Part shown: positions 37,847 through 42,261 of the stretch, piece after piece
Layout: every line of letters starts with the position of its first letter
Position numbering within the stretch: position 1 is the first letter of the stretch
NCBI RefSeq assembly: GCF_042434975.1
Contig: NZ_JBHMQM010000009.1
Coordinates: 216,831-280,830, forward strand
Origin: Terrimonas alba
GTDB lineage: Bacteria > Bacteroidota > Bacteroidia > Chitinophagales > Chitinophagaceae
Direction of reading: 5' to 3'
DNA: 64,000 nt
The notes under the pieces: generated by a model
Told to the model about the DNA's origin: nothing
Seen by the model: only the letters and a program-made list of their open reading frames with translations
Databases searched by the model: none
Translations under genes and position numbers: made by a program

Positions 37847-38569
37847 TTAGAAGTTTACCTCTTCAATAGCCGGCATTGCATCATAGGTTCTACCGTTGAG
37901 GGTTCTTCCAGTTTTCTTTTTATTCGTTCCGCCCCATTGTTTAAAAAAGAATGCCACTTTCGCTTTTTCGCATTGCTGTTGTATATCCAGTACCCAATCA
38001 ACATCCATCGGTCTAGGTATTCTTCCGCTTTCTCCTCCAACAATTACCCAATCGATTTTCTTAAGATTTAGTTTTTTCAACGGACCAATTAAAGGCTCGC
38101 AGGAAAGAAACTTTGTTCTTGCATTTGTTTTACGAAGATCATCAATTCGGTGCATCACTCTTTCATCTTCAACCGACACACCCATCCAGACATTATGAGT
38201 CCAGTTTAACTCTTTATGATATTTCAATAAAATGTCTGATCGCTTGGTTAGCACCTGGAAAGTATGTTGAGGACAGTCATTCATTGTCTGAAAAACCTTC
38301 TTGATAAACTCGAGTGGCACGTCCTTATGAAATAAATCACTCATTGAATTCACAAAGACAATCTTTGGAGACTTCCATCCGAAAGGTGTCAACAATGCAT
38401 CTTCATGTGTTCTTATCTTGAAACCTTCTTTATACTTCTCAATACCCATCGCCTTTAACCGACGGGTCATTACTTCCGCATAACAATATTTGCAGCCAGC
38501 AGAAATCTTATTGCAACCAGTGGTCGGGTTCCAGGTCATTTCGGTCCATTCGATTGAAGATTGTGCCAT
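37847..38569 (-). CDS. Phage Gp37/Gp68-family protein (DUF5131, three-Cys-motif protein)
   Basis: 240 aa. The N-terminus SSIEWTEMTWNPTTGCNKISAGCKYCYAE is the hallmark CxxxxxCxxC N-terminus of DUF5131. Confidence 0.8.
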   Translation of the reverse strand: MAQSSIEWTEMTWNPTTGCNKISAGCKYCYAEVMTRRLKAMGIEKYKEGFKIRTHEDALLTPFGWKSPKIVFVNSMSDLFHKDVPLEFIKKVFQTMNDCPQHTFQVLTKRSDILLKYHKELNWTHNVWMGVSVEDERVMHRIDDLRKTNARTKFLSCEPLIGPLKKLNLKKIDWVIVGGESGRIPRPMDVDWVLDIQQQCEKAKVAFFFKQWGGTNKKKTGRTLNGRTYDAMPAIEEVNF

Positions 38570-38571
38570 AT

Positions 38572-39768
38572 TTACCTTTTTCTAAAAATATAAGTAGCTT
38601 TTTTTGATTTATATTCAGTATAAGTTAAACCAAAACCAGGTGTTTTATCCATGGATATGCCGTTATAATCTGTAATTTCAATTATTTTGTTTGCTTTCAT
38701 TTCACGAAGTACTTGGCTCATGTGAGAAGCTTTAAATTGATTACGCAAGGTAAATTCATAAAGTTCGATATTAGATACCTGTATCATCGAGCCAATTAAA
38801 CTTCTAAATAGTTTCTTTAAATTAGAAATACTGATATTTTTATCATACTCCGTAAGCGTTTCACCGAAAAGTGTAGACTGATCGCTTCTTTGGTTAAATC
38901 CTTTGCCTAAACTATCGTTCTTCCATTTTGCCTCGATAAATTTCTCCAATCCATAAATGTGATGCCCGATAAAGAAAAGTGCATAATAATTTGCTTTGTT
39001 TCGCTCTATATAATGCGAAGCGGTATAAAATTCTCCGTTAAAAGAAAATGCCTTTCTTAATTCTTCTATATAGTCAAAAATATTTAGGTTAACTTCAGTT
39101 ATCACTTTGGAGCTCGTCTCAAAAAAGCTATGGATAAATTTCCTAAGATTCTCGTAGGCCTTCTTCTCATAATCGGTCAAGGCTTCGTCAGTAAATCTCT
39201 TCATATGGGCAACAGGCAAAAATAAAATCACCTCAGATCTTCTTCGTTTTAGTAACTGATATAATTTGTCCCTTTCTATTTTTGAATAACCATAGGGGTC
39301 AATAAAAACTAAACTCCGCTCCTTATCCGAAAATCCATTAATTTTTTCCCCAACTAAATCCATCATTTCTGATGCATCTAAATTAAAAGGAGTAATCTTA
39401 CAATTTTTAAAGGGCAAGCTTCCAATTAGCTCACTAACAGAGTATACTTTATTTTCATCAAAATCATTAATAAATAGATTTACCCGCTTACTGACTTGTC
39501 CTCTTTGCTGGAAATAAGCTTCGTAATCCAATACGCAGGAAGCTGCTATCAGCGGACTACCCATATTCCCATCATCATAAATACCTGTGCCACAAAAAAT
39601 ATCAAAAATATTTATCGCTTCGATAAATTTTGAGTGCCCAAGAATTGGTAAGTATTCTTTTAAATAAGTCTTGTATAAATCAAGTTTTGCTTTTGAATGC
39701 GGCAGGACCAGCTTTTTTGGATTCTTTTTTGACATAAGCCGTAAGTTATCTATAAATATAACCAACAC
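38572..39768 (-). CDS. Three-Cys-motif partner protein TcmP-like (Rossmann-like FDxFCGTG motif)
   Basis: 398 aa. The motif ...INIFDIFCGTGIYDDG... resembles methyltransferase motif I (FxGxG). It is adjacent to and co-oriented with DUF5131, with a 2-nt gap, matching the known Tcm/TcmP pairing. Confidence 0.55.
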   Translation of the reverse strand: MLVIFIDNLRLMSKKNPKKLVLPHSKAKLDLYKTYLKEYLPILGHSKFIEAINIFDIFCGTGIYDDGNMGSPLIAASCVLDYEAYFQQRGQVSKRVNLFINDFDENKVYSVSELIGSLPFKNCKITPFNLDASEMMDLVGEKINGFSDKERSLVFIDPYGYSKIERDKLYQLLKRRRSEVILFLPVAHMKRFTDEALTDYEKKAYENLRKFIHSFFETSSKVITEVNLNIFDYIEELRKAFSFNGEFYTASHYIERNKANYYALFFIGHHIYGLEKFIEAKWKNDSLGKGFNQRSDQSTLFGETLTEYDKNISISNLKKLFRSLIGSMIQVSNIELYEFTLRNQFKASHMSQVLREMKANKIIEITDYNGISMDKTPGFGLTYTEYKSKKATYIFRKR

Positions 39769-39774
39769 TTTTTG

Positions 39775-40884: not shown

Positions 40885-41023
40885 AGATATTTGGTTTTTG
40901 GTCGTTCTTCAAAACAAAAAAGGAGAATAAAGAGTTATCCCACTCAATCACTTAACACATTATCTTACTCTCTATTCTCCTTTGTACATTCCCATCCCAC
41001 TTTATTGGTTATCGTTACTGCTT

Positions 41024-41641
41024 CTATCCGAATAACTCCCCCTGTTTTGTCAACACCGGTAGATTTTGAAATTCAAATCGTCTTACCGTTTTATACTTCT
41101 TTTCTCCGACGGGTCTTCGTAACAATGCCATTTCATTAGCAATAAACCGCCCGGTGAAATTTTTATTACTGTATTCGAGCCAGCCTTTCTCATACTGCCA
41201 GGGTTGCAACTTTCTTGCAACCGTTACATGGGGTTCCATAATAAAGTGCGGTTTATTTTCATCATTCAATTTCATCAGCCGCTGGGCTTCACTGCGCACT
41301 TGTTTTACCAGGCTTTGAATGGGGACTTTAGAGGCAACATTAATAAAAATGGTGTGCGAAGGAAAGCTGCCAAAATCCTTTAATTCTACTTTAAATGGCG
41401 GAAATGCCATACCGACCACCTTCAGCCGGTTGATCAGCCGCTCTTCCATCATTTCATACTGCACAAAATTGGCCAGCGTTATATGTGGTCTGCCCCATTT
41501 GGCCTGATCTGATTGGTATTTGTCACCAAACTCTTCCTTAACCTTTATTATTTTGTTCCATAATTCTTCATGGGGACTTAATACGAGCAAATACTCATTA
41601 ATTCGATAGCCGGGTAAGGTTGTTGTTATATCCAGTTGCAT
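41024..41641 (-). CDS. 2H phosphoesterase (LigT-like 2'-5' RNA ligase / cyclic phosphodiesterase family), copy 1
   Basis: 205 aa. Two H-x-T-x motifs are present: RPHITLANF and EPHVTVARK. Confidence 0.7.
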   Translation of the reverse strand: MQLDITTTLPGYRINEYLLVLSPHEELWNKIIKVKEEFGDKYQSDQAKWGRPHITLANFVQYEMMEERLINRLKVVGMAFPPFKVELKDFGSFPSHTIFINVASKVPIQSLVKQVRSEAQRLMKLNDENKPHFIMEPHVTVARKLQPWQYEKGWLEYSNKNFTGRFIANEMALLRRPVGEKKYKTVRRFEFQNLPVLTKQGELFG

Positions 41642-41652
41642 AAGATTAAGTA

Positions 41653-42261
41653 TTAATTGAAAAGATTGTTATTTACTGGTAGTTGAAATCTGCTTACCAC
41701 CCCGCAGCCATCAAATTGATGGTCCCGTTTGAGAAGTGTTAACTCACAGGCAGCAAACGTTTCAACAAAAGTTTTCTGCGAATAATCCACCATCGCCTTT
41801 TCATACACTTTCTCAGGAAGCCTGCGGGCAATGGTCATATGTGGCCGGTTACACAAATAGACCGGCGGACAGCCATTTGACCGTACATAGGTGTCAATCA
41901 CCCGCAACTGAGTAGCCAATCTTTTGAACGGCTGATGGTCCTGCACCCTCAGGTAAACGGTATGAGGCGGAAATCCACTGTAATTATTTAATGTTACCGG
42001 GAAACTGCCATGCTGTAGCCCGATACGTTGAATCCAGCGTATCAGCGTTTCTTCCATTTCCTCACGAGCCATAAAATTGGCTACTGTAATGTGTGGCTTT
42101 GTTTTGATAGAAACTTTTTGCCGGTATTGCTCATAAAAGCATTGCTTTTCTTTACTCACTTTATTATATACTTCATCATCTGGTTGAATGACCAATAAAT
42201 ACTCCTTCATGCCCCTGAAATTGTCAAAAGGCATTTCTGGCTGTATGAATTCCTGCTGCAT
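41653..42261 (-). CDS. 2H phosphoesterase (LigT-like), copy 2
   Basis: 202 aa. Two H-x-T-x motifs are present: KPHITVANF and RPHMTIARR. It is a tandem paralog of the preceding gene. Confidence 0.7.
   Translation of the reverse strand: MQQEFIQPEMPFDNFRGMKEYLLVIQPDDEVYNKVSKEKQCFYEQYRQKVSIKTKPHITVANFMAREEMEETLIRWIQRIGLQHGSFPVTLNNYSGFPPHTVYLRVQDHQPFKRLATQLRVIDTYVRSNGCPPVYLCNRPHMTIARRLPEKVYEKAMVDYSQKTFVETFAACELTLLKRDHQFDGCGVVSRFQLPVNNNLFN

What the first reader, a model, noticed from the sequence alone, without database searches (positions are those of the whole stretch)
37847..42261. Operon LigT-LigT-radical SAM(PA0069/SplB-like)-TcmP-DUF5131 next to umuDC
Five co-directional genes with gaps of 11 nt, 6 nt and 2 nt (plus 139 nt between LigT copy 1 and the radical SAM gene) combine four elements.
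- Two 2H phosphoesterases (RNA end-healing or ligation chemistry).
- A radical SAM enzyme of the spore-photoproduct-lyase-like PA0069 family.
- The TcmP protein.
- A DUF5131 (phage Gp37/Gp68) protein.

The DUF5131/TcmP pair is a recognised but uncharacterised phage and prophage duo. TcmP has a methyltransferase-like FDxFCGTG motif. Finding the pair fused into an operon with LigT paralogs and an SplB-like radical SAM enzyme suggests a nucleic-acid modification or repair pathway with unknown substrate. It might be host-captured from phage.
Basis: partly seen in the sequence, partly recalled or inferred. Interest (0 to 1): 0.65.

Follow-up and report, generated by a model that had tools for sequence, protein, structure and literature searches.

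The report
SOS operon carrying a mobile TcmP–DUF5131 cassette
The five genes are real, but they are two units: a DNA-damage (SOS) operon found throughout this bacterial family, plus an uncharacterised two-gene enzyme cassette plugged into its tail, which gives the first testable clue to when that widespread cassette is switched on.

Summary
The window is from Terrimonas alba (Chitinophagaceae). All five genes, their family assignments and their spacings are confirmed. They are not one conserved pathway.

**Unit 1: LigT(-LigT)-PA0069/SplB-like radical SAM.**
- It is transcribed divergently from umuDC.
- A perfect Bacteroidetes LexA box (CTAAAATTTTTAG, 42302-42314) lies in the 75-nt shared intergenic region.
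- The box was present in 53 of 53 related loci examined.
- LigT2-rSAM was present in 50 of 50 loci, and divergent umuC in 35 of 37.

**Unit 2: TcmP-DUF5131.**
- It matches the unvalidated PADLOC candidate PDC-M30.
- It is low-GC and self-contained. DUF5131 follows TcmP in 74 of 75 loci with enough sequence.
- It occupies a variable slot after the rSAM gene in only 12 of 46 relatives.
- In other relatives the slot holds different TcmP types, PDC-M19, SRAP, an rSAM-DUF4130 cassette, an EndoIV-like gene or an Mrr-like nuclease.

**The new point.** Stand-alone TcmP-DUF5131 pairs in other Chitinophagaceae and Sphingobacteriaceae carry their own LexA box. In other Bacteroidota the pair abuts LexA-like, dinB or dnaE2 genes. 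The cassette is therefore predicted to be damage-inducible.

**Biochemistry (inferred).** TcmP has an RlmJ-like methyltransferase fold plus a wHTH. DUF5131 has an SplB-like cluster loop with CX6CX2C spacing. The substrate is unknown.

The parts
42302..42314 (.). Non-canonical-LexA (Bacteroidetes SOS) operator CTAAAATTTTTAG in the 75-nt umuD/LigT1 divergent intergenic region
   Evidence: Perfect CTAA-N5-TTAG match, one of only 3 in the 64-kb window. The motif was defined and EMSA-validated in PMC8565304. A perfect box lies at the equivalent position in 53 of 53 related loci.
41653..42261 (-). LigT1, a 2H phosphoesterase paralogue (202 aa); accessory extra copy
   Evidence: PF13563 at 56.6 bits. 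HxT motifs HIT and HMT are present in the translation. It is 35.5% identical to LigT2. A LigT1-type copy is present in only 7 of 50 relatives.
41024..41641 (-). LigT2, a 2H phosphoesterase (205 aa); conserved first gene of the core operon
   Evidence: PF13563 at 70.1 bits and PF02834 at 34.3 bits. Weak match to PDB 1vdx. A LigT2-type gene lies upstream of the rSAM gene in 50 of 50 relatives.
39775..40884 (-). PA0069-family (SplB/COG1533-like) radical SAM protein (369 aa)
   Evidence: NF033668 at 469.6 bits against a cut-off of 360, and PF04055 at 62 bits. The cluster motif is C91-x3-C95-x2-C98 within NPYAGCEHGCIYCYA. Hundreds of Chitinophagaceae homologues are 84-94% identical.
38572..39735 (-). 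TcmP (387 aa): RlmJ-like class I methyltransferase fold plus a C-terminal wHTH; the variable partner of DUF5131
37847..38569 (-). DUF5131 / Gp37-Gp68 family protein (240 aa) with the three-Cys motif C19-x6-C26-x2-C29
   Evidence: PF07505 at 331 bits. PADLOC PDC-M30B and M41B, E = 1e-127 and 3e-129. TIGR04471, E = 2e-25. The cluster loop aligns with that of the PA0069 rSAM. It starts 2 nt after the TcmP stop codon.
42337..42826 (+). umuD (probable start at 42337), divergent from LigT1
   Evidence: NF007621, E = 2.9e-38, and Peptidase_S24.
43117..44409 (+). umuC
   Evidence: IMS, IMS_C and DUF4113 domains; NF002955, E = 5.9e-107. A divergent umuC is present in 35 of 37 relatives.
36642..37481 (-). 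hyp279, an unknown protein that directly follows the rSAM gene in relatives lacking the cassette; it marks the far edge of the insertion slot
   Evidence: No hit in Pfam, NCBIfam, PADLOC or PHROGs. Homologues lie directly after the rSAM gene in L098, L121, L122, L127, L131, L134 and L159, after a 264-aa SRAP gene in L150, and after DUF5131 in L158. GC 35%.

Best explanation
The locus is a composite of two units.

**Unit 1: the SOS divergon.**
- LigT1-LigT2-PA0069 rSAM is the Chitinophagaceae version of the SOS-regulated splB gene. It is extended by one or two 2H phosphoesterases.
- It is transcribed divergently from umuDC across a single CTAA-N5-TTAG operator.
- The non-canonical LexA of Bacteroidetes would repress both arms. 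RecA-stimulated self-cleavage after DNA damage would de-repress them (inferred from the motif and the literature).

**Unit 2: the TcmP-DUF5131 cassette.**
- It is a self-contained, horizontally exchanged two-gene cassette.
- It sits in a variable cargo slot at the 3' end of unit 1, so it would be read through from the LexA-controlled promoter.
- Elsewhere the same cassette brings its own LexA box. Damage-inducibility therefore appears to be a property the cassette is selected for, not an accident of position.

**Mechanism (inferred).**
- TcmP binds SAM through its invariant DxFxGxG loop.
- TcmP docks on nucleic acid through its wHTH and presents a flipped base in its FxDPxG pocket.
- DUF5131 is a small SplB-related Fe-S enzyme with CX6CX2C spacing. 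It would perform radical chemistry on that base.
- The pair works as a two-subunit enzyme on its own, not as a step in a LigT/SplB pathway.

Whether its targets are damaged host DNA or phage and prophage nucleic acid is unresolved. I lean slightly towards a conflict role, about 45%, against about 35% for a repair role.
For: **LexA operator.**
- A perfect box lies in the umuD/LigT intergenic region of the window.
- The box is present in 53 of 53 related loci. L169 has two tandem one-mismatch boxes instead.
- splB/COG1533 is a documented SOS regulon member in Bacteroidetes and other phyla, with EMSA support in Verrucomicrobia (PMC8565304 and PMC4951493).

**Core versus accessory.**
- LigT2-rSAM in 50 of 50 loci, umuC in 35 of 37, and DUF5131 downstream in 12 of 46.

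**The cassette is autonomous.**
- DUF5131 follows TcmP in 74 of 75 loci with enough sequence.
- LigT and rSAM are nearby in only 7 of 80 loci, all Chitinophagaceae.

**Independent SOS wiring.**
- The only perfect LexA box in each of L009, L010, L011, L013, L016, L018 and L064 lies 25-37 nt upstream of TcmP. Background expectation is 0.009 per 370 nt.
- In Chitinophaga lutea the order is box, small HTH gene, TcmP, DUF5131.
- In L012 a second box sits in front of rSAM-TcmP-DUF5131.
- L072: a LexA-like HTH+S24 gene lies divergent to dinB-dnaE2, with DUF2130 and then TcmP-DUF5131 further downstream on the same strand.
- L068: dinB lies divergent to TcmP-DUF5131, which is followed by a LexA-like gene.
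- L071: an S24 gene lies directly upstream.

**Cargo slot.** The same position holds the following:
- M30-type TcmP and M41-type TcmP
- PDC-M19AB
- SRAP
- rSAM-HHH plus DUF4130
- an EndoIV-like gene
- an Mrr-like gene

L135 is the empty site. L085, L089 and L105 are filled, between the same rSAM and EndoIV-like genes.

**Partner swapping.** In 4 of 7 locus pairs with at least 90% identical DUF5131, the TcmPs cannot be aligned with each other.

**Composition.** TcmP GC 32.5% against 43.6% for the rSAM gene.

**Folds and motifs.**
- TcmP.
- DUF5131 cluster loop WNPTTGCNKISAGCKYCYA against MNPYAGCE---HGCIYCYA in the rSAM.
- Reciprocal weak PHROG and NCBIfam cross-hits between the two rSAM-type proteins.
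- In a Mu-like viral contig TcmP is followed by a protein that passes the PF04055 threshold and also hits DUF5131.
Against: - No expression or binding data exist for this organism. The LexA gene is not in the window.
- Co-transcription of TcmP-DUF5131 with the rSAM gene rests only on 39-nt spacing and the absence of a predicted terminator. Bacteroidetes promoters are not covered by the scan, so an internal promoter is possible.
- The pair recurs at this one slot in 26% of relatives, with several TcmP types. This could mean a functional tie to the PA0069 enzyme rather than a neutral slot.
- Many pairs outside Chitinophagales and Sphingobacteriales show no recognisable LexA box. They sit next to restriction-modification or defence genes, or next to housekeeping genes such as LptD. 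SOS control is therefore lineage-specific.
- The DUF5131 model is poor (pLDDT 62.5). Its fold matches do not separate rSAM enzymes from other TIM barrels.
- TcmP's motif IV (DPYG) is not the canonical (D/N)PP(Y/F).
Confidence: 0.6

Rival explanations
1. Single pathway. LigT, the PA0069 rSAM, TcmP and DUF5131 act successively on one nucleic-acid substrate as a dedicated repair or modification pathway.
For: - Tight co-directional spacing in the window.
- The pair lies directly after the rSAM gene in 12 of 46 relatives, with at least three TcmP types. That is far more often than random insertion would give.
- In L012, rSAM-TcmP-DUF5131 has its own LexA box.
- In L167/L168 a second LigT lies immediately upstream of TcmP.
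- NCBIfam defines a 'radical SAM mobile pair' whose A and B members are homologous to DUF5131 and to the PA0069 rSAM respectively.
Against: - 74% of relatives keep LigT-rSAM without the pair. Two have decayed DUF5131 genes, L130 and L144.
- 66 of 80 pair loci lack LigT and rSAM within 10 kb.
- The slot also holds unrelated cassettes.
- Three proteobacterial PA0069 genes have neither LigT nor the pair next to them.
- Both 'mobile pair' hits score far below the family cut-offs.
Confidence: 0.12
2. Pure anti-phage defence cassette in a hot spot. TcmP-DUF5131 (PDC-M30) is a defence system that landed in a recombination-permissive intergenic site. Its link to SOS is incidental.
For: - Strong hits to PADLOC candidates M30 and M41.
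- Neighbours elsewhere include MmeI/Eco57I-like, type I-like and GmrSD genes, DarT-Macro and Hna.
- Position in phages: in Gordonia phages TcmP lies directly after the immunity repressor. In a Mu-like contig it lies downstream of a CI-like repressor.
- The partner gene is hypervariable.
- GC is low.
- PDC-M19 occupies the same slot in L105 and lies near the pair in L058.
Against: - PDC systems are unvalidated 'guilt-by-embedding' predictions (PMC10855318).
- Stand-alone pairs carry their own perfect LexA box at a fixed distance in at least 8 loci.
- The pair abuts LexA-like, dinB or dnaE2 genes in three further lineages. This is hard to call incidental.
- The slot also holds bona fide SOS and repair genes: SRAP, rSAM-DUF4130 and an EndoIV-like gene.
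Confidence: 0.15
3. Accessory DNA-damage repair enzyme. The pair directly reverses or processes a DNA lesion, as SplB-type enzymes are presumed to do. TcmP acts as the lesion- or sequence-recognition subunit.
For: - The SOS wiring.
- Slot-mates are repair cassettes.
- The DUF5131 cluster loop resembles that of the SplB family.
- RNR and parE-like genes lie directly upstream in L077 and L050.
Against: - Repair enzymes are rarely this patchy, or paired with subunits that differ beyond alignability between close strains.
- Many pair loci are restriction-modification or defence islands, or prophage lysogeny modules.
Confidence: 0.13

Closest known systems
SOS-regulated splB (COG1533 / PA0069 / Rv2578c radical SAM 'DNA repair photolyase')
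   Same: The rSAM gene passes the PA0069 equivalog cut-off. It sits behind a LexA-type operator, as reported for Bacteroidetes, Verrucomicrobia, Proteobacteria and Actinobacteria (PMC8565304, PMC4951493).
   Different: Here it is always preceded by a LigT-type 2H phosphoesterase and shares its operator with umuDC. Three proteobacterial examples are monocistronic. The biochemical activity of the family is still unknown.
TcmP / three-Cys-motif protein pair (TIGR04474 + PF07505), listed as PADLOC candidates PDC-M30 and PDC-M41
   Same: Both genes pass the family models and are adjacent, with a 2-nt gap.
   Different: No regulation or function has been described for the pair in the searched literature. 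Here it is embedded in, or carries, a LexA-controlled promoter, and its TcmP subunit is exchanged between M30 and M41 types at one locus.
RlmJ (23S rRNA m6A2030 methyltransferase) and Legionella LPL1258
   Different: Only 14-15% identity. TcmP has DPYG rather than a canonical motif IV, adds a C-terminal wHTH, and always partners with a Cys-motif protein.
Spore photoproduct lyase (SPL)
   Different: No sequence-level match of either protein to solved SPL chains. DUF5131 is about 100 residues shorter and has CX6CX2C spacing.
Deinococcus cinA-ligT-recA operon
   Same: A LigT-type 2H phosphoesterase is co-transcribed with a core DNA-damage gene and is damage-induced (PMC6300522).
   Different: Different partner genes and a different regulator (IrrE/DdrO).
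SOS-regulated radical SAM plus UDG-like (DUF4130) cassette
   Same: Another rSAM-containing two-gene cassette with a LexA box. It occupies the same slot in L120 and L124, and lies next to the pair in L002 and L167.
   Different: Unrelated partner protein. Not present in this window.

Membership tests
PA0069-family radical SAM (NF033668; COG1533 SplB-like) | Whole-protein score above the curated cut-off | tested here: met
   469.6 bits against a cut-off of 360.
PA0069-family radical SAM (NF033668; COG1533 SplB-like) | CX3CX2C [4Fe-4S] motif | tested here: met
   C91-EHG-C95-IY-C98, invariant in alignment A3.
PA0069-family radical SAM (NF033668; COG1533 SplB-like) | SAM cleavage or DNA repair activity | not testable with these tools
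   Needs biochemistry. No family member has a defined substrate in the searched literature.
Bacteroidetes SOS regulon (non-canonical LexA, CTAA-N5-TTAG) | Operator instance in the promoter region | tested here: met
   Perfect site at 42302-42314, 41 nt from the LigT1 ATG and 23 nt from the umuD ATG.
Bacteroidetes SOS regulon (non-canonical LexA, CTAA-N5-TTAG) | Operator conserved in orthologous promoters | tested here: met
   53 of 53 loci.
Bacteroidetes SOS regulon (non-canonical LexA, CTAA-N5-TTAG) | Repressor binding and damage induction | not testable with these tools
   Needs EMSA or expression data.
2H phosphoesterase (LigT-like) | Two H-x-T/S motifs | tested here: met
   LigT1 has HIT and HMT. 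LigT2 has HIT and HVT (translations). PF13563 scores are above the gathering cut-off.
ThpR/LigT equivalog (TIGR02258, RNA 2',3'-cyclic phosphodiesterase) | Score above the equivalog cut-off | tested here: not met
   28.5 and 42.6 bits against a cut-off of 65.7. Both are superfamily members, not ThpR orthologues.
TcmP (TIGR04474) | Score above the cut-off and adjacency to a three-Cys-motif protein | tested here: met
   131.1 bits against a cut-off of 53. DUF5131 starts 2 nt downstream, and the adjacency holds in 74 of 75 loci.
Class I SAM-dependent amino-methyltransferase (RlmJ-like) | Rossmann-like methyltransferase fold | tested here: met
Class I SAM-dependent amino-methyltransferase (RlmJ-like) | Motif I glycine loop and motif IV (D/N)PP(Y/F) | tested here: inconclusive
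   DxFxGxG has invariant D45 and G49. Motif IV reads FxD146-P-[YWF]-G, not canonical.
Class I SAM-dependent amino-methyltransferase (RlmJ-like) | Methyl transfer | not testable with these tools
   Needs an assay.
DUF5131 (PF07505) | Score above the cut-off and the three-Cys motif | tested here: met
   331.2 bits against a cut-off of 28.9. C19, C26 and C29 are invariant in A2.
Radical SAM superfamily (for DUF5131) | PF04055 match or a partial TIM-barrel rSAM fold with a SAM-binding cluster | tested here: inconclusive
   - No PF04055 hit.
- TIGR04471 at E = 2e-25 but below its cut-off.
- Only the cluster loop aligns with the PA0069 protein.
- The low-confidence model matches NifB, viperin and SPL no better than other TIM barrels.
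- A phage TcmP partner bridges PF04055 and PF07505.
Radical SAM mobile pair A/B (TIGR04471/TIGR04470) | Scores above the equivalog cut-offs | tested here: not met
   89.5 against 355, and 89.2 against 410. The two proteins are homologous to the pair but are not members.
PADLOC PDC-M30 candidate defence system | Both component models hit on adjacent genes | tested here: met
   M30A at E = 3.3e-93 and M30B at E = 1.4e-127.
PADLOC PDC-M30 candidate defence system | Protection against phage | not testable with these tools
   PDC systems are unvalidated (PMC10855318).

The most novel reading that the evidence does not exclude
TcmP-DUF5131 is a LexA-controlled, two-subunit radical-SAM and methyltransferase-fold enzyme. 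On DNA damage it chemically alters specific bases in DNA.

Its interchangeable TcmP subunits would set the target specificity. The 'defence candidates' PDC-M30, PDC-M41 and PDC-M19 would then be exchangeable cargo of a variable SOS operon that links DNA-damage signalling to control of phage or prophage.
Probability: 0.3. Interest if true: 0.75.

Novelty: new variant of a known kind. Interest (0 to 1): 0.55.

Why it matters
**Scale of the unknown.**
- DUF5131 had more than 8000 scored homologues, which is the cap of the search.
- TcmP has 2,798 clusters at 50% identity.
- Together they form a widespread pair with no known function.

**What this locus adds.**
- In one bacterial order the pair is systematically wired to the SOS response. 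That gives a concrete inducing condition (DNA damage) and a genetically tractable context for finding its substrate.
- Several PADLOC 'guilt-by-embedding' defence candidates share a cargo slot with bona fide DNA-repair cassettes. This bears on how such candidates should be interpreted.
- The invariable LigT-SplB coupling next to umuDC extends the described Bacteroidetes SOS regulon.

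Tried and rejected
- **Second Bacteroidetes motif.** GGA-N5-TCC has no site in or near the locus.
- **Other perfect CTAA-N5-TTAG sites.** Those at 13754 and 60510 are not in front of recognisable SOS genes. The window as a whole is not enriched for the motif. The argument therefore rests on conservation of the box across loci, not on counts within the window.
- **Insertion scars.** No convincing direct or inverted repeats flank the cassette. 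No shared end sequences appear between filled and empty slots.
- **Integrase remnant.** A suspected remnant in the 365-nt DUF5131/hyp279 spacer is instead a fragment of a small gene family of 113 aa.
- **Sequence searches of solved structures.** Nothing useful for TcmP, DUF5131 or the rSAM.
- **Exact-sequence look-up of DUF5131.** It found no record.
- **Literature.** No functional study was found for DUF5131, TcmP, PA0069 with radical SAM, LigT with radical SAM and SOS, or 'radical SAM mobile pair'.
- **Second LigT versus the pair.** No clear relation between the presence of a second LigT and the presence of the pair.

Full report
**1. Observation**

The window comes from Terrimonas alba (Chitinophagaceae). 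The TcmP protein is 100% identical to an NCBI T. alba entry.

Five co-directional minus-strand ORFs lie at the stated coordinates, with the stated gaps. Profile searches confirm each assignment:
- two 2H phosphoesterases, both with intact HxT motifs
- a PA0069-family radical SAM protein (469.6 bits against a cut-off of 360)
- TcmP (TIGR04474)
- DUF5131 (PF07505)

umuD and umuC are divergent from LigT1, and a DUF72 gene converges on umuC. No terminator-like site lies on the coding strand between the genes; the only one within the array is inside the LigT1 ORF at 41874.

Two minor corrections apply. The 139-nt gap follows the second LigT. With NCBI's TTG start, the rSAM-TcmP gap is 39 nt rather than 6 nt.

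**2. Comparative genomics from the TcmP side**

I scanned one genome per species with a TcmP alignment. This gave 80 loci, L001-L080.
- DUF5131 follows TcmP wherever the contig allows, in 74 of 75 loci.
- LigT and the PA0069 rSAM lie upstream in only 7 loci, all Chitinophagaceae.
- Clustering all neighbours showed that LigT, the rSAM, UmuD and UmuC are nevertheless the most recurrent neighbour families.

**3. Comparative genomics from the rSAM side**

A metagenome scan with the rSAM protein gave 80 close relatives, L081-L160, at 84-92% identity.

| Feature | Loci with it / loci with enough sequence |
|---|---|
| LigT2-type gene upstream | 50 / 50 |
| Extra LigT1-type copy | 7 / 50 |
| Divergent umuC | 35 / 37 |
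| DUF72 | 27 / 37 |
| DUF5131 within 5 kb downstream | 12 / 46 |

Two of the DUF5131 copies, in L130 and L144, are decayed.

The family-wide unit is therefore umuDC divergent from LigT-rSAM. TcmP-DUF5131 and LigT1 are accessories.

**4. Regulation**

Sánchez-Osuna et al. (PMC8565304) defined and validated CTAA-N5-TTAG as the operator of the non-canonical LexA of Bacteroidetes. They listed splB/COG1533 in its regulon. PMC4951493 documents LexA control of splB in several other phyla, with EMSA support.

- The window has a perfect site, CTAAAATTTTTAG, at 42302-42314 in the 75-nt umuD/LigT1 spacer.
- A perfect site lies at the equivalent position in 53 of 53 related loci.
- L169 has two tandem one-mismatch sites instead.

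**5. The cassette carries SOS wiring of its own**

Several lines show this.
- In seven stand-alone TcmP-DUF5131 loci the only perfect box in up to 21 kb lies 25-37 nt upstream of TcmP. These are L009, L010, L011, L013, L016, L018 and L064, covering Mucilaginibacter, Flavisolibacter, Pelobium, Niastella and other Chitinophagaceae. The background rate is 0.009 per 370 nt.
- In Chitinophaga lutea the only box precedes a small HTH gene that is followed by TcmP-DUF5131.
- In L012, where an inserted gene splits LigT from the rSAM gene, a second box precedes rSAM-TcmP-DUF5131.
- In other Bacteroidota the pair abuts SOS genes:
  - L072: a LexA-like HTH+S24 gene lies divergent to dinB-dnaE2, with DUF2130 and then TcmP-DUF5131 further downstream on the same strand.
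  - L068: dinB lies divergent to TcmP-DUF5131, which is followed by a LexA-like gene.
  - L071: an S24 gene lies directly upstream.
- parE-like and class II RNR genes lie directly upstream in L050 and L077.

**6. A variable cargo slot**

In different relatives the position after the rSAM gene holds different genes:
- TcmP of PDC-M30 subtypes
- short TcmP of PDC-M41 type, about 285 aa and lacking the wHTH
- PDC-M19 A/B (L105)
- an SRAP peptidase (L150)
- the rSAM-HHH plus DUF4130 cassette (L120, L124)
- an EndoIV-like TIM barrel (L135)
- Mrr-like nucleases (L095, L103)
- hyp279

One sub-lineage shows the insertion directly. L135 is 'empty', with the rSAM gene followed directly by the EndoIV-like gene. 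L085 and L089 carry TcmP-DUF5131 between the same two genes, and L105 carries M19AB there.

DUF5131 stays 72-89% identical to the window's copy while its partner changes type. In 4 of 7 locus pairs with at least 90% identical DUF5131, the TcmPs cannot be aligned with each other.

TcmP has 32.5% GC (GC3 30%). The rSAM gene has 43.6% GC (GC3 46%). I found no flanking repeats or shared end sequences.

**7. Other contexts of the pair**

About a dozen loci place the pair directly behind restriction-modification or defence genes:
- MmeI/Eco57I-like, type I-like, N6/N4 methylase and GmrSD genes
- DarT-Macro in Pedobacter agri
- the Hna defence gene in S. meliloti

In phages:
- DUF5131 occurs in 178 phage records.
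- This TcmP family occurs in only 10 phage records, all Gordonia phages. There it lies directly after the immunity repressor, with DUF5131 convergent.
- It also occurs in 2 IMG/VR contigs. In one Mu-like contig it lies downstream of a CI-type S24 repressor. It is followed by a protein that passes PF04055 and also hits DUF5131.

PADLOC lists the pair only as an unvalidated candidate.

**8. Proteins**

TcmP:
- The AF2 model has mean pLDDT 85.6.
- Family-wide invariant residues are D45 and G49 in DxFxGxG, D146 in FxDPxG, and R180.
- The C-terminus matches the GMT-wHTH model.

DUF5131:
- It has a C-x6-C-x2-C motif.
- Its cluster loop aligns with that of the PA0069 protein: WNPTTGCNKISAGCKYCYA against MNPYAGCE---HGCIYCYA.
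- The two proteins cross-hit each other's PHROG families and the NCBIfam 'mobile pair' models.
- The DUF5131 model is poor and its fold matches do not discriminate between families.

**9. Interpretation**

Shown by the analyses:
- the anatomy of the locus
- the split into core and accessory genes
- conservation of the operator
- independent boxes on stand-alone pairs
- the slot, and partner swapping

Inferred:
- LexA repression and damage induction
- read-through from the LexA-controlled promoter into the cassette
- the division of labour between TcmP (SAM binding and base presentation) and DUF5131 (radical chemistry)

One inference for the LigT genes is that they heal 2',3'-cyclic phosphate ends. 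Such ends could arise at ribonucleotides misincorporated by Pol V. This is speculation prompted by PMC4951493 and by the Deinococcus cinA-ligT-recA precedent.

Whether the cassette serves repair or conflict is open. Hypervariability, patchiness and the defence and prophage contexts favour a conflict role. The slot-mates and the SplB-like chemistry favour a repair role.

**10. Verdict**

- This is a new variant of a known kind: an SOS splB operon with a LigT prefix and a swappable cargo tail.
- The finding worth following up is the predicted LexA control of TcmP-DUF5131.

Noticed in passing
window 44406-45329 (-): A DUF72 (YecE-like TIM-barrel) gene converges on umuC. It keeps this position in 27 of 37 relatives, so it may belong to the same damage-response neighbourhood.
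   Followed up: partly
window 33338-35701 (-): The cluster hyp139, hyp169 (phrog_11311) and a 358-aa AAA ATPase is conserved downstream in many relatives. hyp139 is a paralogue (31% identity) of the N-terminal domain of the ATPase.
   Followed up: partly
window 37612-37833 (+): The 365-nt spacer between DUF5131 and hyp279 holds a fragment 40% identical to a 113-aa protein of unknown family. In L124 that protein is encoded convergent to DUF5131. It is probably a decayed small gene.
   Followed up: partly
window 13754-13766 and 60510-60522: Two further perfect CTAA-N5-TTAG sites. One lies upstream of a SusC-like TonB receptor, with a one-mismatch site 35 nt away. The other lies 70 nt upstream of a REP-associated transposase-like gene. 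Neither gene is an obvious SOS gene.
   Followed up: partly
L105 9140-10854; L058 13379-15114: The PADLOC candidate PDC-M19 A/B occupies the same slot as TcmP-DUF5131, between the rSAM and EndoIV-like genes, in L105. It lies about 1.5 kb from a TcmP-DUF5131 pair in a Nitrospinales locus.
   Followed up: partly
L002 5133; L167 9994; L168 6546: The rSAM-HHH plus DUF4130 cassette next to the pair has its own perfect LexA box directly upstream. This matches its reported SOS regulation.
   Followed up: partly
L007 9560-9928; L124 1803-2571; L151, L154, L157, L160: A family of proteins of about 122 aa and unknown function recurs immediately after the rSAM gene. It occurs twice in tandem in L124, and between the rSAM gene and TcmP in L007.
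   Followed up: no
L130 3586-4267; L144 9054-9596; L142 9275-10344: Some slot copies look decayed. DUF5131 is split in L130 and truncated in L144. TcmP is split into two ORFs in L142. Assembly errors are not excluded.
   Followed up: no
L170 13294-15185: In Chitinophaga lutea an Ada/MGMT/AraC adaptive-response cluster and a 2OG-Fe(II) oxygenase gene lie about 5 kb downstream of the LexA-boxed HTH-TcmP-DUF5131 unit.
   Followed up: no
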